The notes: generated from the letters alone by a model not told the origin. Shown: positions 30,744-61,986, counted from the first letter of the stretch. The stretch is 64,000 nucleotides of DNA from Candidatus Neomicrothrix subdominans (GCA_016719385.1 JADJZA010000003.1:4161-68160); one strand, 5' to 3'. A program made the numbers and translations.

Positions 30744-31214
30744 ATGACGATGGCCGAGCACGAACGGTACCATCTTCACCAGCAGCTCGAAGAAGTACTC
30801 GACGAGCGAGGAGCCAACACCATGATGGAACTGCTTCCACCCGTGGGATGGGCCGACGTCACCACCAAACGCGACCTCGACCAACTCGAAGAACGCATGG
30901 ACCTGCGCTTTCAGAACGTGGACCTCCGATTCGACAACGTCGACTCGCGGCTGGACGAAATTTCCGAAATCGCAGGTCTCCGTTTCAACCAGGCCACCGA
31001 AAACACAAATCTCCGCTTCAACCAGGCCGCCGACAGCACAAATCTTCGTTTCGACAAGGCCGCCGAAAGCACGAATCTCCGCTTTGAGAAGGTCGAGAAA
31101 CGAATCGACGCACAAGCCGACCGGATCATCAGCAAGCTTCTGACAATCCTGGTGCCCATCATCGCGGTGGCCGTAGCGTTCTTGACGGCCATGTCGGTGT
31201 GGGGCCCAGGCTGA
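30744..31214 (+). CDS. Tail-anchored coiled-coil repeat protein (DUF1640-like architecture), paralogue 1
   Basis: GGAGG lies 9 nt upstream of the ATG. N-domain ..RYHLHQQLEEVLDERGANTMMELLPPVGWADVTTKRDLDQLEERM, four 11-aa xxNLRFxQAAx units, C-terminal TM LLTILVPIIAVAVAFLTAMSVW. Confidence 0.7.
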   Translation: MTMAEHERYHLHQQLEEVLDERGANTMMELLPPVGWADVTTKRDLDQLEERMDLRFQNVDLRFDNVDSRLDEISEIAGLRFNQATENTNLRFNQAADSTNLRFDKAAESTNLRFEKVEKRIDAQADRIISKLLTILVPIIAVAVAFLTAMSVWGPG

Positions 31215-31481
31215 TCACCGAGTCCACCGGCGGGCCACATCGACACGCGATGCCAGCGGCTCACGGTGGTGGCCACCTTGGTCACGATCGCCACAACACA
31301 CCCGTCATCACGCTCGACGATCAGGTCCACCTCATGGTCGCCCCGGTGGGTTCGGAGATGACCGACCGACGCTTCACGAACTGCAGCGGAACGACCGCCT
31401 GCACCTGGCCCCCTTCACCCGCATCGAAGTGCAGGAGTTCCACCGGGGCGGTATGCCATTCCTGTGGGCTAACTTCCACAC

Positions 31482-31718
31482 ATGCGTTTGCACATAACAT
31501 TGGACGACGAACTTGTCGAAGAGCTCGACCGTCGCCGGGACTCGCCAACGAAGCGCGTACATCGAAGCAGCGGTGCGCCAGACCCTCGACGACGAACGAC
31601 GTTGGGACGATGTGGAATCGGCCCTCGGCTCCCTCGCCGATTCGGGGCACGCATGGGACGACGACCCGGCCACATGGGTCGCGCACAACGTGAAGCCGAC
31701 AGCCGGCGCACCGGATAG
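31482..31718 (+). pseudogene. vapB: RHH (CopG/VapB-like) antitoxin with a scrambled middle (-2 and -1 nt deletions)
   Basis: Compared with copy 42578..42817: cgtcgccggg versus cgtcgcgccggg, and gggtcgcgc versus gggtgcgcgc. About 47 codons are read out of frame. Both termini are preserved. Confidence 0.65.
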
Positions 31719-32098
31719 TGGCCCGCCTACTCCTCGACTCGACCGTGCTCATCGACGCGCTTCGAGGGCGCCCGGCCGCCGACCGGGTCGCCGGCTTGCG
31801 ACGCCTGGGAACTCAGCCGTGGGTGTGCGCCATCTCGGTCGAGGAGATCTGGCGTGGGCTCCACCCCGACGAGGAAAACCATGCGGTAAGACTGTTTCGC
31901 GGCCTTCGATTGGCCCCGCTCGGCGTCCCCGAAGGCCGCCTCGCCGGAACCTGGCGCCGCGACTTTGCCGCAGCGGGAACCACACTGCACCAGGCCGACT
32001 GTCTCATCGCTGCGGCAGCAGTTGGGATCTCTGCTTCCCTGGCCACCGCAAACGTGCAGGACTTCCCCATGAGCGAGGTCCGGGTCGAAGCCTGGTAG
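31718..32098 (+). CDS. vapC: PIN-domain toxin VapC
   Basis: LLLDSTVLIDAL...ISVEEIWRGL...ADCLIAAAAV...LATANVQDF places the acidic residues as in PIN domains. Directly follows the RHH ORF. Confidence 0.7.
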   Translation: MARLLLDSTVLIDALRGRPAADRVAGLRRLGTQPWVCAISVEEIWRGLHPDEENHAVRLFRGLRLAPLGVPEGRLAGTWRRDFAAAGTTLHQADCLIAAAAVGISASLATANVQDFPMSEVRVEAW

Positions 32099-32257
32099 CG
32101 CTGCTTCGCTTGGCATCGACTCGTTGAGACTCCTCACCGTGTCACAACCAAGCGCCAGTCCACCGAACCCGTGCGAGCTGTCCTGTGGCCGAGGATCGGC
32201 CCCTGGTCGCCGTGCAGCAGCGATGCAGGACGAGGCTGAGCGGGCGCAAACGCACCT

Positions 32258-32557
32258 TCAAGATCCTCCCGGCGCCACTATCTGGCCGGGACGGCCGCCT
32301 TGGCGGCCAGGTACAGACCAGCCGGAGAAAAACTCTGCGCCATTCGAGAATCGAATCGTGCCGGACTCGGAATCGACCGTCACTTCGCAGAACGCCGGGT
32401 AGTCCTCCAGCAACCAGCCGAAGTCAGATCCGGTCAGCCAATCCTCCAGGTCGATGACCTTCACCGATCCATCATCAAACGTCAGCTCGGTCACGTAACG
32501 AGACAGCACCCGCACATCGGTCACGTCGACCAGCACGTACTCGTCAGTGCCCATCAT
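32258..32557 (-). CDS. DUF2442-like protein (C-terminus altered by an A-run frameshift relative to copy 43386..43661)
   Basis: VTDVRVLSRYVTELTFDDGSVKVIDLEDWL...GTIRFSNGAEF. Copy 1 has gagaaaaactc where copy 2 has gagaaaactc. Confidence 0.5.
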   Translation of the reverse strand: MMGTDEYVLVDVTDVRVLSRYVTELTFDDGSVKVIDLEDWLTGSDFGWLLEDYPAFCEVTVDSESGTIRFSNGAEFFSGWSVPGRQGGRPGQIVAPGGS

Positions 32558-32757
32558 CCCATCCCCTTCTCATCGGCCGTCGCCTCGATCCAGCATTTCC
32601 TCCACCGTACCTGGGAAGGCGTGGTCAAGGGTTGCTGAGCTGGCTGAAGCCGAGCAGTCGATCCTGGACGGTGACGTCGTAGCTGGCGGGTCGATGGGGA
32701 GATCGCCACTGCCGCTCTCGGGCAGGTTGAGCGCCAATCAGCTGTCGGGACCAGTGC

Positions 32758-34260
32758 TCACGGGCCCAGCAGAGCAGCAGGCACCACCGCCACGCCGTCT
32801 TCGGGGCGGCGGTAGGCGTAGCGCCCTGAGGTCACCACCACGGCGTCGAGCAGGTCGTCACCCAACCGGTCACGAAGCCAACGGAGGTGCACGGTGTCGT
32901 CCTGGCTCACGGTGGTCGCCAGCTTGGTCTCGATCGCCGCAATGCGCCCGTCATCGCGTTCGACGATCAGGTCCACCTCATGGTCGCCGCGGTGGGTTCG
33001 GAGATGTCCAACCGACGCTTCCGCGCGCTGCGCGTACGTGCGGACCCCCAGGGTGACCAGCGACTCGAACAACGCCCCCAGCAACGATCCGTCCTGTGGT
33101 CGAGGCACCGGCCCCTGGTCGCCGTGCAGCAGCGATGCAGGTCCGAGACCGAGCAGGGTAGTGGCCAGCGCCGGATCTGTCAGGTGGTGCTTGGGAGCGG
33201 CTGCGAGCTGACGCAGGTGGCTCTGGGTGGGTTGCCAACCCGGGAGCGGATCGAGGATGAACAGCCGTTCCAGCATGCTTCTGTACGGTTCGGTGGTGCT
33301 GCGGGCGGGCTTGTTGCCCTCCCCCGGTGTTGCGGCATCCCTGATCTTCTCGTAGGAGGCAACGCTTGAGGTCGCAGCAGCGTACGCAGCCATCCAACGC
33401 CGCAGCGTCGCCCCCCTTCGGACCCTGAGTCCCGCCTCCACCATGTCGCGATCCACCACGCGATCCACGTAGCCGCTCAGCTGCGCGCGCCGCACCCGAT
33501 GTGGCAGTCCCCGAATGCCAGGAAAGCCCGAACCGCAGATCTCTTCGACGTACTCCGGCAGCCCAACCGATGTCTCGCCGGACACCTCCGGTTGGGTGCC
33601 GGTCAGGATGGCGACGAGGGAGACCGTCGGAGAACTCAGGCCACGTTCGGTGTGGCTGAGTGGGCGCATGCGCACCATCAAGATCCTTCCGGCGCCACTG
33701 TGGCTGAACGACGAAGCCGAGCCGGTGAGCAGAAACTGGCCCGGAGCCGCACCGGCGTCCAACGCCCGCCGGACCACATCCCAGGGCACCGCCCGACTGT
33801 CGGGGTCGATCGCCAACCGCTTCGGGGTACCCGACGGCCACCCCGGTTTCGGGCCGAACACCGATGGCCTCGTCGCCCAGATAGTCCCAACCGGCCGCCA
33901 CGAACGCACAGGTGATCGTCGACTTGCCGTCCCCCAATGGGGTGGGCAACAACACCACCTCGCCCTCGGGCGAACGGACCACACCGGTGTGCAGCGCCGC
34001 ACAGCTGTGAGTCCACACCGCATACTCGCTGACCACCGACGTGAGCTGACGCAGGCGGGGCCCCAGGCTGAGGAACTTCAACTCGTAGTCGGTGACGAGC
34101 ACCAACTGCCCGTCGCCGTCCTCATGGGCGTCGAAGAACATCGTCGGCTTCTCGCCGACGGTTCCTGTGCCCAGGAACTCGTCCAGCGTGTCGAGCAGCT
34201 TCGGGTCGGGCCGCGGAACGCGATGTTGTAGTCGATCACCGGGTGGACGGCACCGATCGC
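32758..34260 (-). pseudogene. Chimera: N-terminally truncated DUF4143-type ATPase joined to an HprK-like kinase fragment
   Basis: The ATPase part is near-identical to 44207..45499 from WDVVRRA onward. Upstream it continues as ..KRLAIDPDSRAV and, in another frame, VVLLPTPLGDGKSTITCAFVAAGWDYLGDEAIGVRP. These are paralogous to 48222..49352. Confidence 0.6.
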
Positions 34261-34277
34261 CACATCGTCGACCGCCG

Positions 34278-34622
34278 CTACCGGTGGGTCCCAGGGTTTG
34301 GCCCTGAGCCAAGGAGTTCGACCATTTTTGGCACTTCGTCACTCGCAATGGCCCACACCTGCTCAGAGTCGACCCGGTGGTAGTGGTGGGCGAGAACGAT
34401 ACGCAGCCTCGCAATGTCGCGCCAGGCAACTCTCGGAAAATCCGCTGCCGTATCGTCGGCGATAACGTTCGCTGCCTCGCCGATGATCTCAAGAAGCCGT
34501 TCAGCTGCACGCTGGAGGATCGTGTTCGCCATGAACTCCTCGTGACCTCGGCGCACGATCTGAGCCAGTTCGGCTGCCGCCTCGAGCATGTCGGCGATGC
34601 GCTGCATGTCGCTGCGACTCAC
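34278..34622 (-). CDS. hepT: HepT-like HEPN toxin (DUF86)
   Basis: IIGEAANVI..., RDIARLRIVLAHHYHRVD (Rx4-6H-like). 4-nt overlap with the upstream MNT gene. Confidence 0.65.
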   Translation of the reverse strand: MSRSDMQRIADMLEAAAELAQIVRRGHEEFMANTILQRAAERLLEIIGEAANVIADDTAADFPRVAWRDIARLRIVLAHHYHRVDSEQVWAIASDEVPKMVELLGSGPNPGTHR

Positions 34623-34912
34623 AGGCCAACCGCCTCGCGACGGATGTGATCATCGCGTTCCTTGAGACCCCCGGCGGAAACCACGTCAACCGGGCAATCG
34701 AGGATGCTCTCCAACTCGTCCTGCAGGTGGAGCAGATCAAACAGCGAGCTGTCCGTCGCGAACTCGACCAAGAAGTCGATATCGCTCCCCTCGCCATCAT
34801 CGCCGCGGGCGACCGATCCGAAAATGGCCACGGACGTGCCTCGGTGCCGCCGGACCGCGGCCGCAATCGCGTCCCGGTTCTCTTCGACCAACTTGCGCCT
34901 CGGGCCCATCAC
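34619..34912 (-). CDS. mntA: MntA-like minimal nucleotidyltransferase antitoxin
   Basis: VAIFGSVARGDDGEGSDIDFLVEF matches the GSxxRG...DxD NTase motif. 97 aa. Confidence 0.7.
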   Translation of the reverse strand: MMGPRRKLVEENRDAIAAAVRRHRGTSVAIFGSVARGDDGEGSDIDFLVEFATDSSLFDLLHLQDELESILDCPVDVVSAGGLKERDDHIRREAVGL

Positions 34913-34977
34913 GTCAGGATACCGCGGGCAAGCGCCCTGGCAGCTCGGATTCGAGGAGCAGCATCAGCCAGAATGAC

Positions 34978-35561
34978 GTGGCCCCGCTGTACCACGCTGC
35001 CGAGCTGTGCCTGATGTTGATGCCCGGCACGCTGATCGGCGCCAAGCACGTGGTGCTCGGCAGCTTCGATCCCACCGAGGTGCTCGACACGATGTGTCCG
35101 AGCACATCACGATGTTCTTCGGCGTGGCAACGATGTTCCAGTTTCTGCTGGCCGCCGTCCGACCTCGCCGACCGCGACTTGACCGCCTGGCGCACCGGCC
35201 TCTTTGGCGCATCGCCGACGCCGACGGCAACAACATCAAACCGGGCGACACCGGCGAGATGCTGCTGCGCGGCGAGACGATCATGAAGAACTACCGGAAC
35301 AAACCGGAGGAGACCGCCGTCACCATCGTCGACGGCTGGCTGCACACCGGCGACCTCGCCCGGCTCGACCCTGACGGGTACATGACCCTCACCGACCGCA
35401 TCAAGGACACGATCACCCTCCCCCAGGTACAGGAGTTCTGTCGGGAACGCCTCTCGCACTACAAGGTGCCCCACGACCTGATCGTCCGTCCGATCCCCCG
35501 CAACCCTTCCGGCAAGATCATGGAGCCCGTCATCCGCTCGGAGATGGCCGACGCCGACTGA
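34978..35561 (+). pseudogene. Acyl-CoA synthetase 3' fragment, several frameshifts and a deletion
   Basis: APLYHAAELCLMLMPGTLIGAKHVVLGSFDP / EHITMFFGVATMFQFLL / SDLADRDLTAWRTGLFGASP / GEMLLRGETIMKNYRNKPEETA..WLHTGDLARLDPDGYMTLTDRIKD^TITLPQVQEF..YKVP..RNPSGKI. Confidence 0.6.
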
Positions 35562-40353: not shown

Positions 40354-41480
40354 CTGGTTGGCCAGCTGAATGAACTGGGCGGCCCTTGTGCTCCTCGCTG
40401 AAGGGCACTCCCCGTGCTTTGGCCAGAATGCCGACGGGATAGCCATGGAGCTGCGCATCAGCCGGTGACCAGCGACGACCCGTAGAGGCCTTGAACTCGT
40501 CGACGTCCGACCCCGTCGCCGTCTTCATCAGCGGCGGGCCCGCCAGACCGATCATCGGCAGCCGGTTGGTCAACGCGATCTCGTTGGCCCGCAGCACCTT
40601 CTTGAGGATCCACGGGTTGCTCGCACCGCCCCGCACCGTCGGGTCGCTGGCGCTGGCGCTGGCGCTGGCGCTGATCATGGCTTCCACGCCGGACACAACT
40701 CCGATGCCGGTGACCACGCTGGCGCCGACGGCGTAGTCGCTCACCCAGGCGGCCAGCGCCGACTGCTCGAGGAACGGCGAGTCCTCGTCCAACAGCAACT
40801 CGATGCGTTCGCGCACCGGCAGCTTGCCCCGGCTGCGATGCCGCTCGACGTACTTGGGGCCGCCCCCACCTACCGCGGTGGCCTGCTCGGCGTCGAGGTC
40901 GGCCCCGTCGGTATCGGTGTCGATGACCAGGAGTGAGATGCCGTGTGCCCCGGCGCCGCCGGTGCGCACCGCCGCGGTGGCGTAGCTGGCGCACCCCGGA
41001 GGTGGTGAACGTCTTCGCCCCGTTGACCAGGTAGTGGTCGCCGTCGCGGACCGCGGTGGTGCGGATGCCCGCCACGTCTGACCCAGCGCGTCGAGATCGT
41101 CGATCCACCGGCCGAAGGGGCTATGGCGGGCCGGACCGCCGACGAGGCATCGGTCACCCGTCCGGTCACCACCACGTCGGATCCGGCGTTGAGCGCCGTC
41201 GCGATTCCAAACGCCCCCAGGTAGGCGTTGGCGGCGAGCGGGGACCCGTACCCCAGCTCGTCGGCCCGACCCAAGAGGCGGTCGCCTTCGACGTGGGCGT
41301 TCTCGGCCGTGACCCCGAGACGTTTCGACAGCTCACGCAGCCGGTCCGCCAGCCCGGCCGGGTTGAGCCCACCGGCGTTGACGACGATCTTGACGCCAGC
41401 GTCCATCGCCAGGCCGAGGCAGTCCTCCATTTGTCGCACGACCGTCGTGGCGTACCCCCGGTCGGGATCGGTCGACCTCA
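40354..41480 (-). pseudogene. Mosaic of fused fragments: AtuA-like (DUF1446), acyl-CoA dehydrogenase, carboxyltransferase beta
   Basis: DPDRGYATTVVRQMEDCLGLAMDAGVKIVVNAGGLNP..ANAYLGAFGIATAL..VVVTGRVTDAS; IRTTAVRDGDHYLVNGAKTFTTSG..RTGGAGAHGISLLVID; KYVERHRSRGKLPVRERIELLLDEDSPFLE..NRLPMIGL^..HGYPVGILA..AAQFIQLANQ. Confidence 0.55.
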
Positions 41481-41613
41481 CCAGCGTGCACGAGTCGGTC
41501 GGCGCTTTCCTCAGGGGTTGGCACGTCCGACCGTCAGAGCCCAGCTCGGCTTGGCTGTCACTGCCCGTCCGTATGGTGAATCAACCCCACCCATCGATTC
41601 GGAGGCACATGCC

Positions 41614-42150
41614 ATGACGATGACCGAGGACGACCGGTACCATCTCCACCAGCAGCTCGAAGAAGCACTCGACGAACGAGGAGCCAACACCATGATGGAA
41701 CTGCTTCCACCCGTGGGATGGGCCGACGTCACCACCAAACGCGACCTCGACCAACTCGAGGAACGCATGGACCTGCGCTTTCAGAACGTGGACCTCCGCT
41801 TCGACAACGTCGACTCGCGGCTGGACGAGATTTCCGAAAACACAAGTCTCCGCTTGAACCAGGCCGCCGAAACCACCAACCTCCGTTTCGACCAGGCCGC
41901 CGAAAGCACCAACCTCCGTTTCGACCAGGCCGCCGAAAGCACCAACCTCCGTTTCGACCAGGCCGCCGAAAGCACCAACCTCCGCTTCAACCAGGCCGCC
42001 GAAAGCACCAACCTCCGCTTTGAGAAGGTCGAGAAACGAATCGACGCACAAGCCGACCGGATCATCAGCAAGCTTCTGACAATCCTGGTGCCCATCATCG
42101 CGGTAGCCGTAGCGTTCTTGACAGCCATGTCGGTGTGGGGCCCAGGCTGA
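41614..42150 (+). CDS. Tail-anchored coiled-coil repeat protein, paralogue 2 (six 11-aa units)
   Basis: Near-identical to 30744..31214 but with 6 rather than 4 33-nt units (41836-42033). GGAGG lies 9 nt upstream of the ATG. Confidence 0.7.
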   Translation: MTMTEDDRYHLHQQLEEALDERGANTMMELLPPVGWADVTTKRDLDQLEERMDLRFQNVDLRFDNVDSRLDEISENTSLRLNQAAETTNLRFDQAAESTNLRFDQAAESTNLRFDQAAESTNLRFNQAAESTNLRFEKVEKRIDAQADRIISKLLTILVPIIAVAVAFLTAMSVWGPG

Positions 42151-42577
42151 TCACCGAGTCCACCGGCGGGCCACATCAACACGCGATGCCAACGCTCCCG
42201 GCGGGGCGAGCAGCGTGACCACCCCGGCACCCAACGCCAGCGCCACAACACGCCCGTCATCGCACTCGACGATCAGGTCCACCTCATGGTCGCCCCGGTG
42301 GGTTCGGAGATGACCGACCTACGCTTCTGCGACCCGCGCGTAAGTCAGGAAAGCCCGAACCGCAGATCTCCACGACGTACTCCTGTGATTACCCGGGCTG
42401 AACGATGAAGCCGAGCCGGTGAGCAGAAATGGCACCGCAGCAGCTCGGGCGCGGCGACCACCGCTCACGAACTGCAGCGGAACGACCGCCTGCACCTGGC
42501 CCCGGCCCCTCCACCCGCATCGAAGTGCAGAAGTTCCACCGGGGCGGTATGCCATTCCTGTGGGCTAACTTCCACAC

Positions 42578-42817
42578 ATGCGTTTGCACATAACATTGGA
42601 CGACGAACTTGTCGAAGAGCTCGACCGTCGCGCCGGGACTCGCCAACGAAGCGCGTACATCGAAGCAGCGGTGCGCCAGACCCTCGACGACGAACGACGT
42701 TGGGACGATGTGGAATCGGCCCTCGGCTCACTCGCCGATTCGGGGCACCCATGGGACGACGACCCGGCCACATGGGTGCGCGCACAACGTGAAGCCGACA
42801 GCCGGCGCACCGGATAG
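42578..42817 (+). CDS. vapB: RHH (CopG/VapB-like) antitoxin
   Basis: MRLHITLDDELVEELDRRAGTRQRSAYIEAAVRQTL looks like ribbon-helix-helix. Directly precedes the PIN gene. Confidence 0.7.
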   Translation: MRLHITLDDELVEELDRRAGTRQRSAYIEAAVRQTLDDERRWDDVESALGSLADSGHPWDDDPATWVRAQREADSRRTG

Positions 42818-43197
42818 TGGCCCGCCTACTCCTCGACTCGACCGTGCTCATCGACGCGCTTCGAGGGCGCCCGGCCGCCGACCGGGTCGCCGGCTTGCGA
42901 CGCCTGGGAACTCAGCCGTGGGTATGCGCCATCTCGGTCGAGGAGATCTGGCGTGGGCTCCACCCCGACGAGGAAACCCATGCGGTGAGGCTTTTTCGCG
43001 GCCTTCGATTGGCTCCGCTCGGCGTCCCCGAAGGCCGCCTCGCCGGAACCTGGCGCCGCGACTTTGCCGCAGCGGGAACCACACTGCACCAGGCCGACTG
43101 TCTCATCGCTGCGGCAGCAGTTGGGATCTCTGCTTCCCTGGCCACCGCAAACGTGCAGGACTTCCCCATGAGCGAGGTCCGGGTCGAAGCCTGGTAG
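42817..43197 (+). CDS. vapC: PIN-domain toxin VapC
   Basis: Nearly identical to 31718..32098. Confidence 0.7.
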   Translation: MARLLLDSTVLIDALRGRPAADRVAGLRRLGTQPWVCAISVEEIWRGLHPDEETHAVRLFRGLRLAPLGVPEGRLAGTWRRDFAAAGTTLHQADCLIAAAAVGISASLATANVQDFPMSEVRVEAW

Positions 43198-43385
43198 CGC
43201 TGCTTCGCTTGGCATCGACTCGTTGAGACTCCTCACACCGTGTGACGCAACCGCGTCATGTCCACCGAACCCGTGCGAAGCTGTCCTGTGGCCGAGGGAT
43301 CGGCCCCTGGTCGCCGTGCAGCAGCGATGCAGGACGAGGCTGAGCGGGCGCAAACGCACCTTCAAGATCCTCCCGGCGCCACTAT

Positions 43386-43661
43386 CTAGGCCGGGACGGC
43401 CGCCTTGGCGGCCAGGTACAGACCAGCCGGAGAAAACTCCGCGCCATTCGAGAATCGAATCGTGCCGGACTCGGAATCGACCGCCACTTCGCAGAACGCC
43501 GGGTAGTCCTCCAGCAACCAGCCGAAGTCAGGTCCGGTCAGCCAATCCTCCAGGTCGATGACCTTCACCGATCCATCATCAAACGTCAGCTCGGTCACGT
43601 AACGAGACAGCACCCGCACATCGGTCACGTCGACCAGCACGTACTCGTCAGTGCCCTTCAT
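43386..43661 (-). CDS. DUF2442-like protein
   Basis: 91-aa ORF, a duplicate of 32258..32557 with a different C-terminus. Confidence 0.5.
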   Translation of the reverse strand: MKGTDEYVLVDVTDVRVLSRYVTELTFDDGSVKVIDLEDWLTGPDFGWLLEDYPAFCEVAVDSESGTIRFSNGAEFSPAGLYLAAKAAVPA

Positions 43662-44130: not shown

Positions 44131-44206
44131 GCTGGCGGGTCGATGGGGAGATCGCCACTGCCGCTCCCGGGCAGGTTGAGCGCCAATCAGCTGTCGGGAC
44201 CAGTGC

Positions 44207-45499: not shown

Positions 45500-45500
45500 A

Positions 45501-47758: not shown

Positions 47759-48169
47759 GTGTCTATCACCAACGAGGACCGCTACAATCTGCAGGAACGA
47801 GCCAACGAGCTGTTGGGAAAGAAGGAGGGCACGACCTTGATGGAACTGCTCCCACCGGTCGGTTGGGCCGATGTTGCAACCAAGAACGACCTCGACGTCC
47901 AGACCGCCTTGCTCGATGCCAAGCTCTCGCTGCTCCGCTCCGACCTCGACACCCAGCTCTCCGGGCTTCGGTCGGACCTCGAGCGCAAGACCTCCGGGCT
48001 TCGTTCTGACCTCGAGCACAAGACGTCCGGGCTTCGGTCTGATTTTCAAGCGGAACTGGAGTCAGGACTCCGTCGGCTCGAGAGCAGGATGTTCACAGCG
48101 TTCCTGACAATGATCGGTGTGCTGGCCACGATGGCGGCGCTCCTGGTCGCCGTCCTTCTGCAGGCCTAG
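47759..48169 (+). CDS. Tail-anchored coiled-coil repeat protein, paralogue 3
   Basis: GTG start preceded by GGGAGG. MSITNEDRYNLQERANELLGKKEGTTLMELLPPVGWADVATKNDLD, 11-aa (T/L)SGLRSDLExK units, TM FLTMIGVLATMAALLVAVLL. Confidence 0.65.
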   Translation: MSITNEDRYNLQERANELLGKKEGTTLMELLPPVGWADVATKNDLDVQTALLDAKLSLLRSDLDTQLSGLRSDLERKTSGLRSDLEHKTSGLRSDFQAELESGLRRLESRMFTAFLTMIGVLATMAALLVAVLLQA

Positions 48170-48221: not shown

Positions 48222-49352
48222 TTATGGGCGCGGAGTACTGACAAGCGCGACCGCCCGGTGGGCGTTGCCATGGGTCAGCCGCTCGACCGGAACCGTTGCG
48301 GCCAGATCACACACGGCGTCCAGCGCCGCCTGCCCGGCCCGGGCCAAATTGAGCGTGTTGGCCAGCAACTCGACCACGGCCTCGTGGGGTTCCAACCGCT
48401 GCAACGTCGCCTCGGCACCCTCCTCGTAGGTGGGCAGCACCACCCTGTTCACCGGTCCGACGTCACCGTCAAGACGAACGACATCAGCGTTGATTTCGGC
48501 CGGGTCGAGATCGCCGCCGTCGCTCTCGGGCAGGTTGAGCACCGCCCGGCTGGACGCATCGATCGCCAGCCGCTTGGGGTAGCCCACCGCCATCCCGGAT
48601 CCGGGCCGCACGCCGATCGCCTCATCGCCCAGGTAGTCCCAGCCGGCGGCCACAAAAGCGCCGGTCAGCGTCGACTTGCCGTTGCCCGACGGTGCGGGCA
48701 GCAGCACCAGCTGTCCATCCGGCGAGCGCACGGCCCCGGCGTGGAACGCAGCGCAACTGTGGGTCCACACTGCGTACTCGTTGACCACCGACGTCAGCTG
48801 GCGCAGGCACGCCTCCCGGCTGGGAAAGCGCCACTCGTAATCGGTGACGAGCACCAGCTCGCCCTCGGGGGTCTCGTGGACATCGAAGAACATGGTCGGC
48901 TTCTCGGCGTCGGTCCCCGTGCCGAGGAACGTGTCGAGGGCCTCCAGCACCTCGGTCTGCGGGCCCCGCAGCGCAATGTTGTGATCGATCACCGGGTGGA
49001 CTCTGCCGGTCACCGCTCCCCCGGTCACCGCGCCGTCGGCCGCCTCCTCGGTCGAACCGGCCGGCGGCTTCGGAGCGTCGAATGGCTCGTCCCGGCCGAT
49101 GAGCCCCAGCTCGGTGAGCATGGCCAGCCCTGCGGACACGTCGGCGGCGACGTTTGCCCGGTCGATGCCGGCATCCTCAGCCCAGGCGGTGACCGCAGCA
49201 TCGACGTCGCCCTCGCCGTCGCAGGCGGCCAGCAGCGTGCCGGCGGTGGCGTTGAGCTGGTGGGCGGTTTCGGTGATCAGGTCGTAGGCGATCGCCCGCT
49301 CGCCCATCGGTGACAACAGCACGCCGGGGGAACGCTCGGGAAAGGGAGGCAC
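48222..49352 (-). CDS. PqqD-like domain fused to an intact HprK-like P-loop kinase
   Basis: RAIAYDLITETAHQLNATAGTLLAACDG...LAMLTELGLI is PqqD-like. FHAGAVRSPDGQLVLLPAPSGNGKSTLTGAFVAAGWDYLGDE is kinase-like. Start uncertain: GTG 49352 or ATG 49307. Confidence 0.6.
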   Translation of the reverse strand: MPPFPERSPGVLLSPMGERAIAYDLITETAHQLNATAGTLLAACDGEGDVDAAVTAWAEDAGIDRANVAADVSAGLAMLTELGLIGRDEPFDAPKPPAGSTEEAADGAVTGGAVTGRVHPVIDHNIALRGPQTEVLEALDTFLGTGTDAEKPTMFFDVHETPEGELVLVTDYEWRFPSREACLRQLTSVVNEYAVWTHSCAAFHAGAVRSPDGQLVLLPAPSGNGKSTLTGAFVAAGWDYLGDEAIGVRPGSGMAVGYPKRLAIDASSRAVLNLPESDGGDLDPAEINADVVRLDGDVGPVNRVVLPTYEEGAEATLQRLEPHEAVVELLANTLNLARAGQAALDAVCDLAATVPVERLTHGNAHRAVALVSTPRP

Positions 49353-51670: not shown

Positions 51671-53317
51671 ATGGTCGAAACGACGGTGACCAACGGCGCG
51701 GGAGGCACGGCGGCACAAGGCTCCGCACGCACGGCGAAACGTGCCGGAGGAGACGTTGGGGCACGAGACGCTGGGACACGAGACGCCGGGGCACGAGACG
51801 CCGGGGCACGAGACGCTGGGACACGAGACGCTGGGACACGAGACGCTGGCTGTCTGTGTGGGGGCCTCACGGTCGACTCGGGCGTGTCGGAGTTGGACGT
51901 CGGGGCGTTGAAGGCCGAGATCGCTGCGCTCTCCAGGGTGGACGCGTTGGTGGTTGCCCGCCGTTCGGCGGTGGTTACCGAGTTGGCTCGTCGTGACGGG
52001 GATGTGGCCGAGCAGCTGCGCAGATCCGGCAACATGTCGTCTCGCCAGGCTCGTAAGGCGGCGAAGACCGCCCAGGGTTTGGCACACTTGCCAAAGACCC
52101 GCGAGGCGTTGGAACGCGGCGAGATCGGTGCCGGGCAGGCCGAGGCGTTGGCGTCTCGGATGGACAAGCCCGAACAGGCCCGCAACGTCCGAAACAACGA
52201 GGACTCACTGTTGGAGAAGGCCAAGTCCCAAGACGTCGACGAGTTCGCTCGCACCATGCGCCAGGAAGACATTGCCGGGTCACCCGATCACGGCAACACC
52301 CACGCCCAACGCCAGCGGCAGGCCCGGAAGGCGTCGACGTGGATCGACGGCGACACCGGCATGCATCTGCTGTTTGCCGAGTTCGATCCGATCACCGGCG
52401 CCCGCATCTCCACCCAACTGGCCACGATGGTCGACCAACTGTGGCGGGCCGAACACCTACCCGGCGCCGCCCGCCGCAACAAACGGGCGGTCGCCCAACG
52501 ACGCGCCGATGCCCTCGAAGCGCTCATCTGCCGCAACACCACCAAGAACGCCGGCACCACGACCGGCACCACCGACGCCCGGAGCAACGGTGACGTCCGG
52601 TGCGACGGCACCAGCAACGGCACCAGCAACGGCACCAGCACCGGCAACGGGACCAGCACGCCCGGCGGTGCGACGTCGACGCCCGAGGAACACCCTGCTC
52701 CGGCCGACGCGCCCGCCGGTCAGCCGAGCTTCGACTTCGGTCCCACCGGCGACACCGGTCCCACCGGCGACACAGCTGGTCCCACTCCCCAACCCACCAA
52801 GCACGATGATCCCGGCCCGGCACCAGTAGTGCCGGCGCCCAACCCGACCCAACTGATGGTCATCGCCAACTACGACGCGCTCCGTCAGGCTCTCGCCGGG
52901 GGATCGCTGCCCGACGGCACCCCGCTGTCCGCCGAAGCGGTCGCCAAGCTGGCCTGCGACGCCGAACTCCTCCCCGCCATCTTCGACACGAACGCCCAAC
53001 CGCTCTGGCTGGGCCGCACACAACGCCTCGCCACCCCCGCCCAACGAGCCGCCGTCACCGCCCGCGACCGCGGCTGCATCGGCTGCGCCACCGCCGCCGA
53101 ATGGTGCCAAGTCCACCACATCACCTGGTGGTCTCAACACGGCACCACCGATCTCGACAACCTCTGCTTGTTGTGCTCCAAACACCACCACCTCGTCCAC
53201 GAACACAACCTGAAGATCGTCCCAACCCCAAATGGACCCAAAATCCACACCGGAGGAACTCACCCGCCACCGCAGCGCTCAGCAACCGACCCCAGACCAA
53301 CGCACATCGCTGCCTAA
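51671..53317 (+). CDS. HNH endonuclease with DUF222-like N-terminal region (REP13E12-type)
   Basis: C-terminal RDRGCIGC...CQVHHITWW..GTTDLDNLCLLCSKHHHLVH. N-terminal DAGTR/DAGAR repeats come from 15-bp tandem units (about 51755-51845). Confidence 0.7.
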   Translation: MVETTVTNGAGGTAAQGSARTAKRAGGDVGARDAGTRDAGARDAGARDAGTRDAGTRDAGCLCGGLTVDSGVSELDVGALKAEIAALSRVDALVVARRSAVVTELARRDGDVAEQLRRSGNMSSRQARKAAKTAQGLAHLPKTREALERGEIGAGQAEALASRMDKPEQARNVRNNEDSLLEKAKSQDVDEFARTMRQEDIAGSPDHGNTHAQRQRQARKASTWIDGDTGMHLLFAEFDPITGARISTQLATMVDQLWRAEHLPGAARRNKRAVAQRRADALEALICRNTTKNAGTTTGTTDARSNGDVRCDGTSNGTSNGTSTGNGTSTPGGATSTPEEHPAPADAPAGQPSFDFGPTGDTGPTGDTAGPTPQPTKHDDPGPAPVVPAPNPTQLMVIANYDALRQALAGGSLPDGTPLSAEAVAKLACDAELLPAIFDTNAQPLWLGRTQRLATPAQRAAVTARDRGCIGCATAAEWCQVHHITWWSQHGTTDLDNLCLLCSKHHHLVHEHNLKIVPTPNGPKIHTGGTHPPPQRSATDPRPTHIAA

Positions 53318-53332: not shown

Positions 53333-53694
53333 CTGACGATCACCGAAGACGACCGCCACCATCTACACCAACAGCTCGCAGGAGCGCTGGATCAACGAGG
53401 GGCCACCACGATGATGGAACTGCTCCCACCGGTGGGATGGGCCGACGTCGCCCCAAACGCGACCTCGACCAGCTCGAGGAACGCATGGACCTGCGGATTG
53501 ACAAGGTCGAGCACAGCATGAACCTCCGCTTCGACAAGGTAACGGAAAGCATAGATCTGCGCTTCGACGCAACCGTCTCGAGTTTCCATGCCGACCTTGC
53601 GGAGTCGGGTCGTCGGATGCAGGGCGTGTTCCTCACGGCAATCGTCGCTGCCACCAGCCTTCTCGCTGCGCTCTCGGTGTTCGGGCCCAAGTGA
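53333..53694 (+). pseudogene. Tail-anchored coiled-coil repeat protein, paralogue 4, start lost and frameshifted
   Basis: LTITEDDRHHLHQQLAGALDQRGATTMMELLPPVGWADVA, then a 1-nt gap (gccccaaacgc versus accaccaaacgc), then KRDLDQLEERMDLRIDKV...TM. CTG replaces the ATG. Confidence 0.55.
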
Positions 53695-57531: not shown

Positions 57532-57636
57532 GGCGCAACTCTGTCAGAGACGGCGACCTGGAACGCAGCACCCGGCCGGTATGATCTGCAACAACGGGCC
57601 AACGAAGTCTTGGGAAGGAAGGAGGGCACCACCTTG

Positions 57637-57954
57637 ATGGAGCTGCTTCCCCCGGTTGGATGGGCAGACGTCGCTACCAAGCGCGATATCGATGCGCTCG
57701 ACCTCAATTTCCGCCGGATCGACGACCAGTTCAAGCGCGTTGACGAACGGTTCAAGCACATCGATGAGCAGTTCAAGCGCGTCGACGGACGATTTGACCG
57801 GCTTGAGTCACAGATCGATGAGCGAATCGACGCTCGATTCGACGCGTTCAACGCCAGCGTGCAGACCGACCTTCGCAGGATGCAGGCGGTGCTGTTGGGC
57901 ACGATGACAACGCTCGCCGTCGCGATCACCGGCATCATCTCCATCGCTACCTGA
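57637..57954 (+). CDS. Tail-anchored coiled-coil repeat protein, paralogue 5 (N-terminal extent uncertain)
   Basis: Family homology (RYDLQQRANEVLGRKEGTTL) extends upstream to about 57580 with no ATG/GTG start. The first usable start is ATG 57637 (MELLPPVGW), 8-11 nt after AAGGAGGG. Heptad FKRVDxx repeats, C-terminal TM. Confidence 0.5.
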   Translation: MELLPPVGWADVATKRDIDALDLNFRRIDDQFKRVDERFKHIDEQFKRVDGRFDRLESQIDERIDARFDAFNASVQTDLRRMQAVLLGTMTTLAVAITGIISIAT

Positions 57955-58800: not shown

Positions 58801-58942
58801 AGTCCGAGTCTCGCGCCGGGGCCGGCCTCGCCGTCACAGGCCGGGCGTATCATTCAAGGCGTTGCGGCGACCCTGCGAGGCACCGCCCGGTCGCAGGCTC
58901 CGGAGGCCTTGCCCAACGTCCGACGACCATGGGGGCAGACCG

Positions 58943-59233
58943 ATGTCCATCACCAACGAGGATCGCTACAATCTGCAGCAACGATCCAACGAACTGCTGG
59001 GCAAGAAGGAGGGCGCAACCTTGATGGAACTGCTCCCACCGGTCGGCTGGGCGGACGTCGCCACCAAGACGGACCTCGAAGCTCAGACAGCCCTGCTTCG
59101 GTCTGAGTTTCGGGCCGACCTCGAGTCAAGCCTTCGTCAGCTCGAGAGCAAAATGTTCACCGCATTCCTCACCGTCATCGGCGTGTTGGCCACCATGGCG
59201 GGGCTCCTCGTAGCCGTGCTGCTGCGCTCATAG
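58943..59233 (+). CDS. Tail-anchored coiled-coil repeat protein, paralogue 6 (short core)
   Basis: MSITNEDRYNLQQRSNELLGKKEGATLMELLPPVGWADVATKTDLE...FLTVIGVLATMAGLLVAVLL. The upstream leader is similar to that of 47759. Confidence 0.65.
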   Translation: MSITNEDRYNLQQRSNELLGKKEGATLMELLPPVGWADVATKTDLEAQTALLRSEFRADLESSLRQLESKMFTAFLTVIGVLATMAGLLVAVLLRS

Positions 59234-60640: not shown

Positions 60641-60701
60641 GAGCGCTCCCCCGTCGATCGTGCGCCACAGCCTGCCAGACCGCGACGGCCGTTCCCACCG
60701 C

Positions 60702-61373
60702 TCAGAGGTAACGGTCCCCCGGTTGGCGGGTTCGCATCACCTCGGCCGGCGAGCCCCACGCCACCACGCGGTCGGGCAGGCTGCGGGTGAGCACGGCGCC
60801 CGCTCCCAACACCGAGTCGTCCCCGATCGTCAGGCCATGACGAACGATCGCCCCCATCGCCACCGCGGCCGCCCGGCCGATGCTCACCGTGCCGCCGGTG
60901 AGCGCACCCGGGCCCAGGCTGGACCCGGCGGCCATCGTGGCGTCGTGGTCCAGATTGGCCTGAGCTCCGAGCAGGGCGTGGACGTCGATGGCCGCCTGTG
61001 GACCGATCGACGCCCCCGCCAGCACGACCGCACCATCGCCGATCCGGGCCGACGCTGCCACCGACGCCGTCGGGTGAACGACCGCGACAAACGCCAGGCC
61101 AGGAACCGTGCGGGCGAGCCGCTCGGCGACGACCAGCCGGGTGTGGTTGTCGCCGACACCGATGACCACGCCGTCGATCCGGCCCTCGCTCCACCAGGGG
61201 GCGACCGCATCGGTGCCACCGACGACAGGAACGCCCAGCACGGTGCTGGTCGATGCACCACCCGCCGACCCGGCTGCGCCGTCATCGACGACGGCGACCA
61301 CCTCGAGGGTCGAACCCGCCTGGGCCGCATCGACGACGCAGGATGCGTGGCCCGAACCCCCGACGATCATCAC
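60702..61373 (-). CDS. NeuD/PglD-like sugar acetyltransferase (hexapeptide repeat)
   Basis: MIVGGSGHASCVVD... N-domain, then left-handed beta-helix repeats (IGDGAVVLAGASIG..IDVHALLGAQANLDHDATM). Start trimmed to avoid an Arg/Trp-rich leader. Confidence 0.6.
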   Translation of the reverse strand: MMIVGGSGHASCVVDAAQAGSTLEVVAVVDDGAAGSAGGASTSTVLGVPVVGGTDAVAPWWSEGRIDGVVIGVGDNHTRLVVAERLARTVPGLAFVAVVHPTASVAASARIGDGAVVLAGASIGPQAAIDVHALLGAQANLDHDATMAAGSSLGPGALTGGTVSIGRAAAVAMGAIVRHGLTIGDDSVLGAGAVLTRSLPDRVVAWGSPAEVMRTRQPGDRYL

Positions 61374-61512
61374 CCGACGCACCCACCAACCGTAGAACAC
61401 GTCGTGAGGGTGAGGCCCCACGTCCAAAAATGTCCCACGCCATCCGTACGCTGATCTCCCAGCCCAGCGATGCGGCCCAATCGCCCGCTCACGAGTCCGA
61501 CCAGGAGGACCG

Positions 61513-61986
61513 ATGAGCATCACCAATGAGGACCGCTACGATCTACAGGCGAAAGCCAACCACGTTGTGGGACGGAAGGAGGGCACCACGCTGATGGAAC
61601 TGCTCCCTCCAGTGGGCTGGGCCGACGTCGCCACGAAACGTGACCTCGACCAGCTTGAAGCACGCCTGATCGCCCAGTTCGAACGACGCTTCGTCGGCAT
61701 CGACCATCGATTTGTGGGCATCGACCAGCGATTTGTGGGCATCGACCAACGGTTCGAACGCGTCGACCAACAATTTGAACGCGTCGACGATCGATTCGAT
61801 CGGGTCGACCAACAATTTGAACGCGTCAACGACCGATTCGATCGGGTCGACCAGACGCTGACGACGGCGCTGGCGGAACAGACAGCGGCCTTCCAGACCG
61901 AGCTGCGCAAGATGTACGGCGTACTGTTGAGTGCCATGGTGGCGTTGGCCACGCTGGTCGCGGCGATCGTGGCCCTCAGCAGCTGA
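61513..61986 (+). CDS. Tail-anchored coiled-coil repeat protein, paralogue 7
   Basis: AGGAGG 4 nt upstream of the ATG. MSITNEDRYDLQAKANHVVGRKEGTTLMELLPPVGWADVATKRDLDQLE, heptads RFVGIDx/FERVDxx, TM LLSAMVALATLVAAIVAL. Confidence 0.7.
   Translation: MSITNEDRYDLQAKANHVVGRKEGTTLMELLPPVGWADVATKRDLDQLEARLIAQFERRFVGIDHRFVGIDQRFVGIDQRFERVDQQFERVDDRFDRVDQQFERVNDRFDRVDQTLTTALAEQTAAFQTELRKMYGVLLSAMVALATLVAAIVALSS

What the first reader, a model, noticed from the sequence alone, without database searches (positions are those of the whole stretch)
30744..61986. Seven-member family of small tail-anchored proteins with a conserved N-domain and hypervariable repeat cores
Copies lie at 30744, 41614, 47759, 53333 (pseudogene), 57637, 58943 and 61513, all on the + strand. 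They share an N-domain ((M)SITNEDRY.LQ...E.LG.KEGTTLMELLPPVGWADVATK.DLD) and a single C-terminal TM helix. The central coiled-coil core differs in both motif and length:
- 11-mers xxNLRFxQAAE
- 11-mers TSGLRSDLExK
- heptads FKRVDxx and RFVGIDx
- almost no core in 58943
Most copies have strong SD sequences. The layout (conserved N-terminus, variable tandem repeats, membrane tail) recalls DUF1640-type proteins and, by architecture only, the Borrelia Bdr paralogue family. Seven copies in about 31 kb, each beside unrelated genes, is striking and unexplained.
Basis: partly seen in the sequence, partly recalled or inferred. Interest (0 to 1): 0.75.

Follow-up and report, generated by a model that had tools for sequence, protein, structure and literature searches.

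The report
Tail-anchored coiled-coil stalk protein family
Seven clustered genes in a Candidatus Microthrix chromosome encode small membrane-anchored stalk proteins with a shared head and a repeat-built stalk of very different lengths; the family is large and uncharacterised, resembles the DUF1640/MCUR1 type, and its function is unknown.

Summary
Seven same-strand paralogues lie at 30.7-62 kb: six are intact and one (53333) is a pseudogene. Each has five parts:
- a 30-residue two-helix head
- an almost invariant LPPVGWADVATKxDL neck
- a stalk of tandem 7- or 11-residue repeats
- an ELR-type juxtamembrane motif
- a C-terminal TM helix with 0-2 residues after it

The similarity is not a recent DNA duplication, apart from the c1/c2 pair. 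Synonymous sites between subfamilies are saturated (dS about 1-1.7, dN/dS 0.1-0.4). The head profile finds about 3,900 protein clusters, in Acidimicrobiia, Nitriliruptoria and other Actinomycetota.

VATKxD matches the published beta-layer motif that starts the trimeric stalk of DUF1640 membrane proteins. However, Pfam PF07798 is not reached and the heads are not detectably homologous. I therefore call it a DUF1640-like variant, not a member.

Alleles in public assemblies differ by whole repeat units (134/145/156/178 aa; 143/150/157/164 aa). No partner gene recurs. The head is absent from phage, plasmid and viral collections.

The most likely role is a cytoplasm-facing membrane scaffold whose reach is set by repeat number; this is inferred, not shown. 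Interest is moderate.

The parts
30744..31214 (+). c1, 156 aa, subfamily A. Head aa 1-30; neck LPPVGWADVTTKRDL (beta-layer position from nt 30858); 11-residue repeats xxNLRFxQAAE; TM aa 132-156 (nt 31137-31211).
   Evidence: HMM E 9.8e-30; 33 nt x3.2 at 30977-31081
41614..42150 (+). c2, 178 aa, recent duplicate of c1 with two more 11-residue units. TM aa 154-178 (nt 42073-42147). Stalk about 115 aa.
   Evidence: dS 0.07; 33 nt x5.7, 93% matches, 41834-42020
47759..48169 (+). c3, 136 aa (GTG start), subfamily B. VATKND beta-layer motif from nt 47873; 11-residue repeats TSGLRSDLExK; TM aa 111-136.
   Evidence: (33 nt x2.5 at 47959-48042); identical protein listed in 195 index blocks of public assemblies
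53333..53694 (+). c4, subfamily A pseudogene. CTG in place of a start codon; 1-nt deletion after codon 40 (GTC GCC [A]CC). The C-terminal part (KRDLDQLEERMDLRIDKVE...SVFGPK) continues in the +2 frame to the stop at 53694.
   Evidence: (same lesion in 7 loci from other assemblies)
Heptads (Q/R)FKRVD(E/G); beta-layer from nt 57670; TM nt 57880-57951.
   Evidence: (21 nt x3.3 at 57719-57787)
58943..59233 (+). c6, 96 aa, subfamily B (83% identical to c3) lacking a 40-aa repeat block. Stalk only about 32 aa. TM aa 71-94.
   Evidence: (AF2 pLDDT 88.5: H5-19, H21-30, loop 31-35, H36-95)
61513..61986 (+). c7, 157 aa. Heptads RF(V/E/D)x(I/V)Dx, about 10 copies. Beta-layer VATKRD from nt 61627; TM nt 61912-61983.
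   Evidence: 100% identical protein P0001 on 255 contigs, Ca. Microthrix subdominans; 21 nt x7.3 at 61700-61853

Best explanation
**What the genes encode.** They are old paralogues of one protein family. Each product is a small tail-anchored membrane protein whose N-terminus faces the cytoplasm. From N to C it has:
- a two-helix head of about 30 residues
- a rigidly conserved neck, LPPVGW-AD-VATKxDL, whose VATKxD fits the N-capping beta-layer motif that nucleates parallel trimeric coiled coils in DUF1640 and related proteins
- a coiled-coil stalk of in-frame tandem heptads (a = F, d = V/I) or hendecads
- a conserved (F)xxELRxx juxtamembrane turn
- one TM helix that ends the protein

**How the stalk varies.** Stalk length changes by gain or loss of whole 21-nt or 33-nt units. 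It runs from about 32 aa (about 5 nm) in c6 to about 115 aa (about 17 nm) in c2, among paralogues and among alleles in the population.

**Relation to known families.** It is an actinobacterial counterpart of DUF1640/CCDC90-like proteins, either an analogue or a very distant homologue.

**Most likely role.** It probably acts as a membrane-anchored scaffold or spacer that presents three heads at a set distance from the inner face of the membrane.

**Shown versus inferred.** Shown here: family membership, domain order, protein-level conservation, repeat-unit polymorphism, taxonomic range, and absence of a fixed partner gene. Inferred: trimeric state, beta-layer formation, N-in topology, and the scaffold function.
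For: **Family size and range**
- Seven HMM-significant copies in the window.
- 3,144 hits in the word-index search.
- 3,941 clusters at 50% identity with E<=1e-3, and 2,052 with E<=1e-10.
- 427 loci in GTDB species representatives, all listed titles Actinomycetota and mostly Acidimicrobiia.

**Protein-level selection**
- dN/dS 0.1-0.4 with dS 0.9-1.7 between subfamilies.
- All synonymous codons are used inside the invariant LPPVGWADVATK peptide.

**Architecture across 219 non-redundant members**
- The head is 38 residues long before the motif in 191 of 219.
- 188 of 219 have a C-terminal hydrophobic 19-mer, with a median of 3 residues after it.
- K/R count is 1.9 before the TM against 0.6 after it.
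- Best repeat period is 7 or 14 residues in 64 members and 11 residues in 29.

**Structure and beta-layer**
- AF2 model of c6: helix-turn-helix head, a loop at PPVG, then one long helix through the TM.
- The published consensus [aliphatic]-A-T-K-[polar]-[DE] sits at the start of the DUF1640 stalk (PMC4786415).
- The only PDB sequence hits are sub-threshold matches of ATKxD[IL] to three-chain entries 6h9l and 7o92.
- hhalign against 32 genuine bacterial PF07798 proteins gives probability 93.9% and score 39.5, collinear over head, neck and stalk start. The maximum over 30 column shuffles is 24.9.

**Unit-wise length alleles**
- c2 type: 134, 145, 156 and 178 aa.
- c7 type: 143, 150, 157 and 164 aa.
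- Ca. M. parvicella paralogue: 105 against 112 aa.

**Age of the loci**
- The c3, c4 and c7 positions are syntenic in other Microthrixaceae.
Against: - No direct evidence for oligomeric state, topology, expression or any partner.
- Pfam PF07798 is not reached (13.5 against 33.5 bits, c3 only). It is not among the 25 most frequent families for 59 relatives.
- Head-only profile comparison with DUF1640 is at noise level (score 9.5; shuffles reach up to 12.1). The hhalign signal therefore rests on the ATK motif plus coiled coil.
- c1 and c2 carry VTTK instead of VATK.
- The AF2 monomer cannot show a beta-layer, and the neck has the lowest pLDDT (66).
- Foldseek against the PDB finds nothing.
- Some single-contig length alleles could be repeat collapse in short-read assemblies.
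- The scaffold function is an analogy with MCUR1/CCDC90B, not a result.
Confidence: 0.55

Rival explanations
1. Cargo of mobile or defence islands. On this reading it is a membrane effector or accessory protein of toxin-antitoxin (TA) or abortive-infection systems, or an XhlA/holin-like lysis factor.
For: - Four of seven copies adjoin TA modules: c1 and c2 are followed by vapBC, c3 follows vapBC, and c4 is followed by phd-parE.
- c1 and c2 sit at the edge of a TA-rich cassette inside a broken AMP-binding gene.
- Foreign loci also show this: L087 has a member followed by vapBC, and L092 has a PemK module upstream.
- Among 79 small neighbours in foreign loci there are 4 PIN, 2 PemK and 2 RHH proteins.
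- Weak XhlA hits occur in 8 of 59 relatives.
- phrog_6701 matches the c7 stalk plus TM at E 2.7e-13.
Against: - No neighbour family recurs in more than 6 of 75 loci, and neighbour orientation is random.
- Most members have metabolic or housekeeping neighbours.
- No PADLOC model matches beyond coiled-coil noise.
- The head is absent from 50,697 phage records, 72,556 plasmids and the IMG/VR contigs.
- The c3, c4 and c7 positions are syntenic across genera, so they are stable chromosomal loci.
- PHROG matches never include the head.
Confidence: 0.1
2. Membrane-tethered regulator. On this reading the head is a degenerate helix-turn-helix or anti-sigma-like domain that binds DNA or a transcription factor and holds it at the membrane.
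For: - Weak, recurrent hits of the head to DUF3489 (6 of 34 members, best E 0.005), zf-HC2 anti-sigma N-domain (5 of 34, best E 0.09) and HTH_DeoR (E 0.014-0.1).
- The AF2 model has three consecutive helices.
Against: - All hits are far below the curated thresholds.
- There are no zinc ligands.
- The 'third helix' is the stalk itself, and its conserved ATKxDL is fully accounted for by the beta-layer motif.
- Foldseek finds no HTH fold.
- No regulator or sigma-factor partner gene recurs nearby.
Confidence: 0.1
3. Amphipathic 11-mer repeat proteins of the apolipoprotein, phasin or perilipin kind that coat lipid or PHA inclusions. Microthrix stores lipids. The TM helix would act as an anchor.
For: Weak hits to Apolipoprotein (c3 E 3e-4; 9 of 59 relatives), Phasin (c5 E 0.0055) and TIGR01837. 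Three copies have 11-residue repeats.
Against: - Paralogues with the same head and tail use canonical a/d heptads (RFxxVDx).
- The hendecads have only 2-4 hydrophobic positions per 11 residues, which is a narrow core stripe rather than a broad lipid-binding face.
- The family is spread over many Acidimicrobiia and Nitriliruptoria not known for lipid storage.
- All the hits are below threshold and typical of coiled-coil noise.
Confidence: 0.07
4. The resemblance among copies is only recent DNA duplication or gene conversion of one gene, with no independent protein-level constraint.
For: c1 and c2 are a recent duplicate (dS 0.07) inside a segmental duplication. c3 and c6 share 58 nt of upstream sequence.
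Against: - dS is 0.9-1.7 between subfamilies with dN/dS 0.1-0.4.
- Synonymous codons vary freely within the invariant peptide.
- There are thousands of homologues in other genomes.
- Orthologues are syntenic in other genera.
Confidence: 0.02

Closest known systems
DUF1640 / CCDC90-like (Pfam PF07798): bacterial DUF1640 proteins, human MCUR1 and CCDC90B
   Same: - Same domain order: short helical head, [aliphatic]-A-T-K-[polar]-[DE] beta-layer at the start of the stalk, coiled-coil stalk, single C-terminal TM.
- Same small size in bacteria (83-100 aa against 96-178 aa here).
- Collinear hhalign match, probability 93.9%.
- Similar AF2 secondary-structure layout.
   Different: - The head sequence is unrelated at detectable level (FDTHKFVxxLxxAGFxxxQAEA against xxxRHxLYxRLEEVLGxxEATTLMEHLPPVGW).
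- A PPVGW break separates head and stalk.
- The Pfam threshold is not met.
- The stalk is built of long tandem repeats with copy-number polymorphism.
- The family is restricted to Actinomycetota, whereas the PF07798 proteins retrieved here that carry a source name are mostly Pseudomonadota, with one Acidobacteriota.
Beta-layer (alpha/beta) coiled coils: Thermosinus Tcar0761, the DUF3782 stalks, trimeric autotransporter stalks (Hartmann et al. 2016, PMC4786415)
   Same: The ATKxD[IL] motif is followed by a coiled coil. The best PDB sequence matches are to repeated MATKEDIEAL / MATKHDIAQL segments of three-chain entries 6h9l and 7o92.
   Different: There is one beta-layer motif per protein, at the neck, rather than arrays of nonads. 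The protein is tail-anchored and cytoplasmic rather than a surface adhesin or a nuclease stalk.
Borrelia Bdr paralogue family
   Same: A multi-copy family of small proteins with a conserved N-terminus, a central tandem-repeat region of variable copy number (from my own knowledge of the Bdr literature, not checked here) and association with the inner membrane. Function is also unknown (PMC10016077).
   Different: No sequence similarity (no Pfam hit at E<=1). Bdr genes are on cp32 prophage plasmids of Borrelia, whereas these are chromosomal in Actinomycetota and absent from the phage and plasmid collections.
Mycoplasma pneumoniae DUF16 family (PF01519; MPN010)
   Same: A multi-copy paralogue family with a coiled-coil core. 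MPN010 has an N-terminal beta-layer. Weak hits are seen here (c1 E 0.001; 13 of 59 relatives).
   Different: Hits are below threshold (19-20 against 40 bits). DUF16 proteins have no C-terminal TM anchor (from my own knowledge, not checked here).
DUF7310 (PF23991) coiled-coil region; XhlA (PF10779)
   Same: Heptad-type relatives match DUF7310 (37 of 59, best 40.2 bits against a cut-off of 40). XhlA shares the 'coiled coil plus C-terminal TM' layout.
   Different: The matches cover only the repeat stalk. None of the window copies matches DUF7310 at E<=1. There is no phage-lysis context.

Membership tests
DUF1640 / CCDC90-like (PF07798) | Scores at or above the Pfam gathering threshold (33.5 bits) for PF07798 | tested here: not met
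   Only c3 hits, at 13.5 bits, E 0.066. PF07798 is not among the 25 most frequent families for 59 relatives at E<=0.1.
DUF1640 / CCDC90-like (PF07798) | Beta-layer motif [aliphatic]-A-T-K-[polar]-[DE] at the start of the C-terminal stalk | tested here: met
   VATK(R/N/T)D in c3, c5, c6 and c7; VTTKRD in c1 and c2. In the 219 relatives selected as containing GW followed by the motif, the residues are V 218, A 218, T 219 and K 201 / R 17. Motif definition from PMC4786415.
DUF1640 / CCDC90-like (PF07798) | Head domain homologous to the DUF1640 head | tested here: not met
   Head-only hhalign score 9.5, probability 0.4%, within the range of column-shuffled controls (up to 12.1).
DUF1640 / CCDC90-like (PF07798) | Overall profile-profile similarity to genuine PF07798 proteins | tested here: inconclusive
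   hhalign A1 against A5: probability 93.9%, score 39.5, against shuffles of at most 24.9. The signal comes from the motif and the stalk start.
DUF1640 / CCDC90-like (PF07798) | Single C-terminal TM helix after the stalk | tested here: met
   KD19 2.05-2.71 with 0-2 residues after it in all six intact copies; 188 of 219 relatives.
DUF1640 / CCDC90-like (PF07798) | Homotrimeric coiled-coil stalk | not testable with these tools
   Only monomer AF2 was available. It needs multimer prediction or biophysics.
Borrelia Bdr | Sequence homology to Bdr proteins | tested here: not met
   No Borrelia family among Pfam or NCBIfam hits at E<=1.
Borrelia Bdr | Carried on Borrelia plasmids or cp32 prophages | tested here: not met
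   Chromosomal contigs of Ca. Microthrix. The head is absent from the plasmid, phage and IMG/VR collections.
Tail-anchored membrane proteins (operational class) | Single TM at the extreme C-terminus, no N-terminal signal peptide, positive charge on the N-side | tested here: met
   (sequence-based only). The N-terminus is a polar helix. Membrane insertion itself was not tested.
XhlA (PF10779) / phage lysis accessory | Pfam threshold and location in a lysis cassette | tested here: not met
   Best E 6e-4, with no window copy at E<=1. No phage genes adjacent.

The most novel reading that the evidence does not exclude
The family could be a set of length-adjustable, trimeric 'molecular rulers' on the cytoplasmic face of the membrane. 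On this reading the invariant head and neck dock one conserved cellular partner, and repeat-unit gain or loss (heptad or hendecad) tunes the distance at which that partner is held. A genome would keep a graded series of stalk lengths (here about 5 to 17 nm), and populations would keep length alleles under selection. That would be a bacterial case of function encoded in coiled-coil length, and would also give the DUF1640/MCUR1 type a testable mechanism.
Probability: 0.15. Interest if true: 0.7.

Novelty: new variant of a known kind. Interest (0 to 1): 0.45.

Why it matters
- The family has thousands of members, yet no model in the Pfam or NCBIfam copies used here covers its head and its function is unknown.
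- It occurs in multiple copies in Ca. Microthrix, the main bulking and foaming filament of activated sludge, and across the poorly studied Acidimicrobiia.
- It extends the head / beta-layer / stalk / TM design of DUF1640 (MCUR1, CCDC90B) to a new head domain.
- It offers a natural series of stalk lengths and two repeat periodicities on one scaffold. That is useful for coiled-coil structural work and for asking what such anchored stalks do.
- It does not overturn anything known.

Tried and rejected
- **Family libraries.** Pfam, NCBIfam, PHROGs and PADLOC scans of the six intact copies gave no curated family. They gave only coiled-coil noise: DUF16, Apolipoprotein, Exonuc_VII_L, Phasin, JetC, LmuB.
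- **Solved structures.** The PDB profile search gave only sub-threshold ATK-motif hits. Foldseek of the AF2 model against the PDB gave nothing with E<1.
- **Mobile collections.** tblastn of c7 and of the head against phages and plasmids, and a head-pattern scan of IMG/VR, found no match.
- **Partner gene.** BLAST clustering of all ORFs within 2.5 kb in 75 foreign loci gave only antisense-frame artefacts of the repeats, plus an SDR (short-chain dehydrogenase) in 6 loci. Neighbour orientation is random.
- **Regulatory signals.** The upstream-region alignment shows no motif shared by all copies. Promoter and terminator scans were uninformative. The leader shared by c3 and c6 has no significant RNA structure (z -0.5 and +0.2). 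Rfam and tRNA scans of the window found nothing.
- **HTH or anti-sigma head.** Only weak DUF3489, zf-HC2 and DeoR hits. Kept as a low-probability rival.
- **Literature.** DUF1640 mentions in phage and Liberibacter papers are loose coiled-coil annotations and not informative. Adlakha et al. 2019 (Structure 27:464) could not be read.
- **Not done.** No far-neighbour control for TA enrichment, so I claim no enrichment. The genome-wide copy number in this strain could not be counted, because no Microthrix genome record was among the 80 listed loci of the genome scan. At least one further paralogue exists elsewhere in the species: P0453, locus tag WAX12_07960.
Full report

Translating from the seven stated starts gives seven related products. 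The repeat finder independently groups the seven 5' regions as one family of 124-nt segments, at 62-95% identity (D2). A profile HMM built from diverse N-domains finds exactly these seven when run on the six-frame translation of the whole window (E 1e-18 to 5e-30). All are on the + strand, and none lies in 1-30 kb.

Six copies are intact. In c4 (53333) a CTG stands where the start codon should be. It also has a single-base deletion (GTC GCC [A]CC) just after WADVA, and the rest of the protein continues in the +2 frame to 53694. Loci fetched from other assemblies of the species carry the same lesion. The missing base is an A between C's, not a change in the length of an existing homopolymer, so I accept it as a pseudogene.

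Two corrections apply:
- c5 does not start at 57637. That ATG is Met28 of the conserved head. The head sequence is intact upstream, and other assemblies call a 145-aa product from TTG 57517.
- c1 and c2 are a young pair (dS 0.07) inside a roughly 5.5 kb segmental duplication, 30.5-36 kb against 41.4-47.5 kb.

**2. Source and family**

c7 is 100% identical to a hypothetical protein of Candidatus Microthrix (Neomicrothrix) subdominans that is seen on 255 contigs. The surrounding genes are ordinary chromosomal genes.

The family is large:
- 3,144 hits in the word-index search.
- 3,941 clusters at 50% identity with E<=1e-3, and 2,052 with E<=1e-10, for the 58-residue head profile.
- 427 loci encoding PPVGWADV among GTDB species representatives. 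All listed record titles are Actinomycetota: Microthrixaceae, Iamiaceae, Acidimicrobiaceae, other Acidimicrobiia, Nitriliruptoria and unclassified Actinomycetota.

The head is not found in 50,697 phage records, 72,556 plasmids or the IMG/VR viral contigs.

**3. Protein-level conservation, not DNA duplication**

Between subfamilies the N-domain has dS 0.9-1.7 (near saturation) and dN/dS 0.1-0.4. The subfamilies are A (c1, c2, c4), B (c3, c6), c5 and c7. Inside the invariant peptide LPPVGWADVATK the seven copies and 76 foreign genes use all synonymous codons.

**4. Anatomy**

An alignment of 59 members and statistics on 219 non-redundant members give one plan:
- Residues 1-30 form two helices. 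AF2 on c6 gives pLDDT 88.5, with H5-19 and H21-30.
- Residues 31-36 are LPPVGW, a loop with the lowest confidence.
- From residue 39 comes V-A-T-K-x-D-L.
- Next comes a repeat core.
- Then comes a conserved (F)xxELRxx motif and a terminal hydrophobic helix.

Across the 219 members the head is exactly 38 residues in 191. A C-terminal hydrophobic 19-mer is present in 188, with a median of three residues after it. K/R residues are enriched on the N-side (1.9 against 0.6), which, together with the lack of a signal peptide, argues for an N-in tail anchor.

In the window the distance from motif to TM is 32 aa (c6), 70 (c5), 72 (c3), 93 (c1), 95 (c7) and 115 (c2). If helical, that is about 5 to 17 nm.

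The cores are true tandem repeats at DNA level. The units are 33 nt in c1, c2 and c3, and 21 nt in c5 and c7. Family-wide, the best repeat period is 7 or 14 residues in 64 members and 11 in 29. The heptads RFxxVDx place F at a and V/I at d, with R at g and D at e, which is a canonical coiled-coil pattern read directly from the sequence.

**5. Link to known structures**

Hartmann et al. (eLife 2016, PMC4786415) define the N-capping beta-layer consensus [aliphatic]-A-T-K-[polar]-[DE]. [quoted passage not shown] V-A-T-K-(R/H/Q/N/T)-D in the same position here fits that consensus.

The best PDB sequence matches of the head profile are not significant (E 0.66 and 2.8). They are exactly the ATKxD[IL] segments of 6h9l and 7o92, each an entry with three chains.

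To test membership I retrieved genuine bacterial PF07798 proteins, using a bait sequence written from memory. Nearly all listed hits carry the precomputed PF07798 label. I then aligned 32 of them. The results were:
- hhalign of the two profiles gives probability 93.9% and score 39.5. It is collinear from helix 1 through the motif, and 90.6% with the full-length alignment.
- Thirty column-shuffled controls reach at most 24.9, and the reversed profile scores 11.7.
- With the motif and stalk removed, the heads alone score 9.5, which is noise.
- The Pfam model itself is not reached (13.5 against 33.5 bits).
- An AF2 model of a genuine DUF1640 protein shows a similar layout: a short helix, a turn, then a long helix to the C-terminus.

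I conclude that the architecture and neck motif are the same, that common ancestry of the head is unproven, and that the family should not be filed as PF07798. Precomputed labels on relatives (PF23991 DUF7310, PF27276 MJ0349, PF27742 CTXL_M) are weak or faint and fall on the coiled coil.

**6. Hypervariable cores in populations**

- c2-type alleles in public assemblies are 134, 145, 156 and 178 aa. They are identical outside the array and differ by whole 11-residue units. One 160-aa variant has a different deletion. The 145-aa allele is on five contigs, including a 48.8 kb MAG contig. The 156-aa cluster has 59 member sequences.
- c1 and c2 in the window differ by exactly two units.
- c7-type alleles at 87% identity or more are 143, 150, 157 and 164 aa, in steps of one heptad. 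Orthologues in sister species are 104, 115, 122, 129, 136 and 143 aa.
- A Ca. M. parvicella paralogue exists as 105 and 112 aa, differing by one AEIAGVR unit.

Some single-contig variants may be assembly collapse. The well-supported alleles show that the phenomenon is real.

At the syntenic c7 position, upstream of SDR and MDMPI genes, another Microthrixaceae genome carries a member with seven 11-residue units (MEQGIRGDMAK) instead of heptads.

**7. Genomic context**

No partner gene was found:
- In 75 independent foreign loci, no neighbour family recurs in more than six.
- Neighbour orientation is random: 41 upstream on the same strand, 33 upstream on the opposite strand, 39 downstream same, 38 downstream opposite.
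- The small neighbours are a mixture. They include 4 PIN, 2 PemK, 2 RHH, 4 glyoxalase, YbaB/RecR and CrgA proteins.

In the window four copies adjoin TA modules. c1 and c2 sit at the edge of a TA-rich cassette lying between fragments of an AMP-binding gene. I did not run a control, so I claim no enrichment.

Clustering is a family trait. Fifteen of 79 foreign 8-kb loci hold two or three members, some in tandem, and always on the same strand. For 16 extra copies, the chance of this is about 1.5e-5 if orientation were random. That points to an origin by local tandem duplication.

The c3 (next to PqqD), c4 (between DegT and NTP_transf_5) and c7 (next to SDR and MDMPI) positions are conserved in other Microthrixaceae. 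The cluster is therefore old and vertically inherited. The species has at least one more paralogue outside the window (P0453).

**8. Mechanism**

The best-supported reading is an N-in, tail-anchored, probably trimeric stalk protein. Its conserved neck caps and nucleates the coiled coil. Its length is set by repeat number, and it presents a small conserved head to the cytoplasm.

By analogy with MCUR1/CCDC90B, which the literature treats as inner-membrane scaffolds, I favour a scaffold or spacer role, but this is inference. The rivals (TA or defence cargo, tethered regulator, lipid-inclusion coat) each rest on sub-threshold hits or partial context, and are listed with their tests.

**9. Verdict**

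The finding is a real and correctly described feature. It is a large, uncharacterised actinobacterial family that is a new variant of the DUF1640-type design. It shows notable paralogue clustering and repeat-unit length polymorphism. Interest is moderate (0.45).

Noticed in passing
window 30247-35561 and 41416-46606: c1 and c2 each sit at the left edge of a roughly 4.7 kb cassette rich in toxin-antitoxin genes: family gene, vapBC, DUF2442, AAA_14/DUF4143 ATPase, then HepT/MNT or NTP_transf_2. The cassette lies between N- and C-terminal fragments of an AMP-binding (acyl-CoA synthetase) gene. The broken gene plus cassette is duplicated at 90-99% identity, with a rearranged right end. This looks like an island that was inserted and then segmentally duplicated.
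   Followed up: partly
window 31258-31375, 32904-33021, 42210-42327, 44353-44470: A 118-nt repeat in four copies (77-91% identity). Two copies lie inside the 3' part of the DUF4143 ATPase genes, and two lie immediately downstream of c1 and c2. It is probably a rearrangement scar.
   Followed up: no
window 45501-45604: A 23-nt tandem repeat (GCGTCCTACGCTACAGTTCCGGC, 4.6 copies, 96% matches) lies directly upstream of the AAA_14/DUF4143 gene (44207-45499, - strand). Purpose unknown.
   Followed up: no
window 51750-51849: A 15-nt tandem repeat (6.7 copies, 92% matches) lies at or just before the 5' end of the DUF222-domain gene (51671 or 51884 to 53317). If translated it would encode a pentapeptide repeat.
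   Followed up: no
window 47825-47842, 57622-57639, 59009-59026, 61579-61596 (approximate): In c3, c5, c6 and c7 the codons for (K/R)KEG(T/A)TLM read AAGGAGGG...ATG. That is a perfect Shine-Dalgarno sequence 10-11 nt before Met28 (MELLPPVGW). An internal start could produce a head-less isoform, and several public gene calls begin there (P0038, P0054, P0433, P0437). It may be coincidence.
   Followed up: no
window 26338-26834 (- strand): Two short ORFs with transposase N-terminal domains (HTH_Tnp_1 and HTH_21). They look like an IS3-type remnant about 4 kb upstream of the first family copy.
   Followed up: partly
window 47701-47758 and 58885-58942: c3 and c6 share about 58 nt of upstream sequence (84% identity over 213 nt including the 5' CDS), with a GC-rich palindrome. 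The predicted RNA structure is no better than shuffles (z -0.5 and +0.2).
   Followed up: yes
L030:3188-4336; L011:4001-4555; L008:4001-4411: Related Microthrixaceae keep family members at syntenic positions. L030 has two members between DegT and NTP_transf_5, where the window has a DUF222 gene, the c4 pseudogene and phd/parE. The member at the c7 position in L011 has an 11-residue repeat core instead of heptads.
   Followed up: partly
c7 residues 47-154 (window 61651-61974): Phage protein families of unknown function, phrog_6701 (E 2.7e-13) and phrog_12015 (E 1.6e-10), match the heptad stalk; the phrog_6701 match also runs into the TM helix. Neither matches the head. Their members could not be inspected.
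   Followed up: no
window 33824-34123 and 48576-48875: A 300-nt stretch at 77% identity links the region upstream of the DUF4143 ATPase gene to the interior of the PqqD-domain gene (48222-49352, - strand). Not explained.
   Followed up: no
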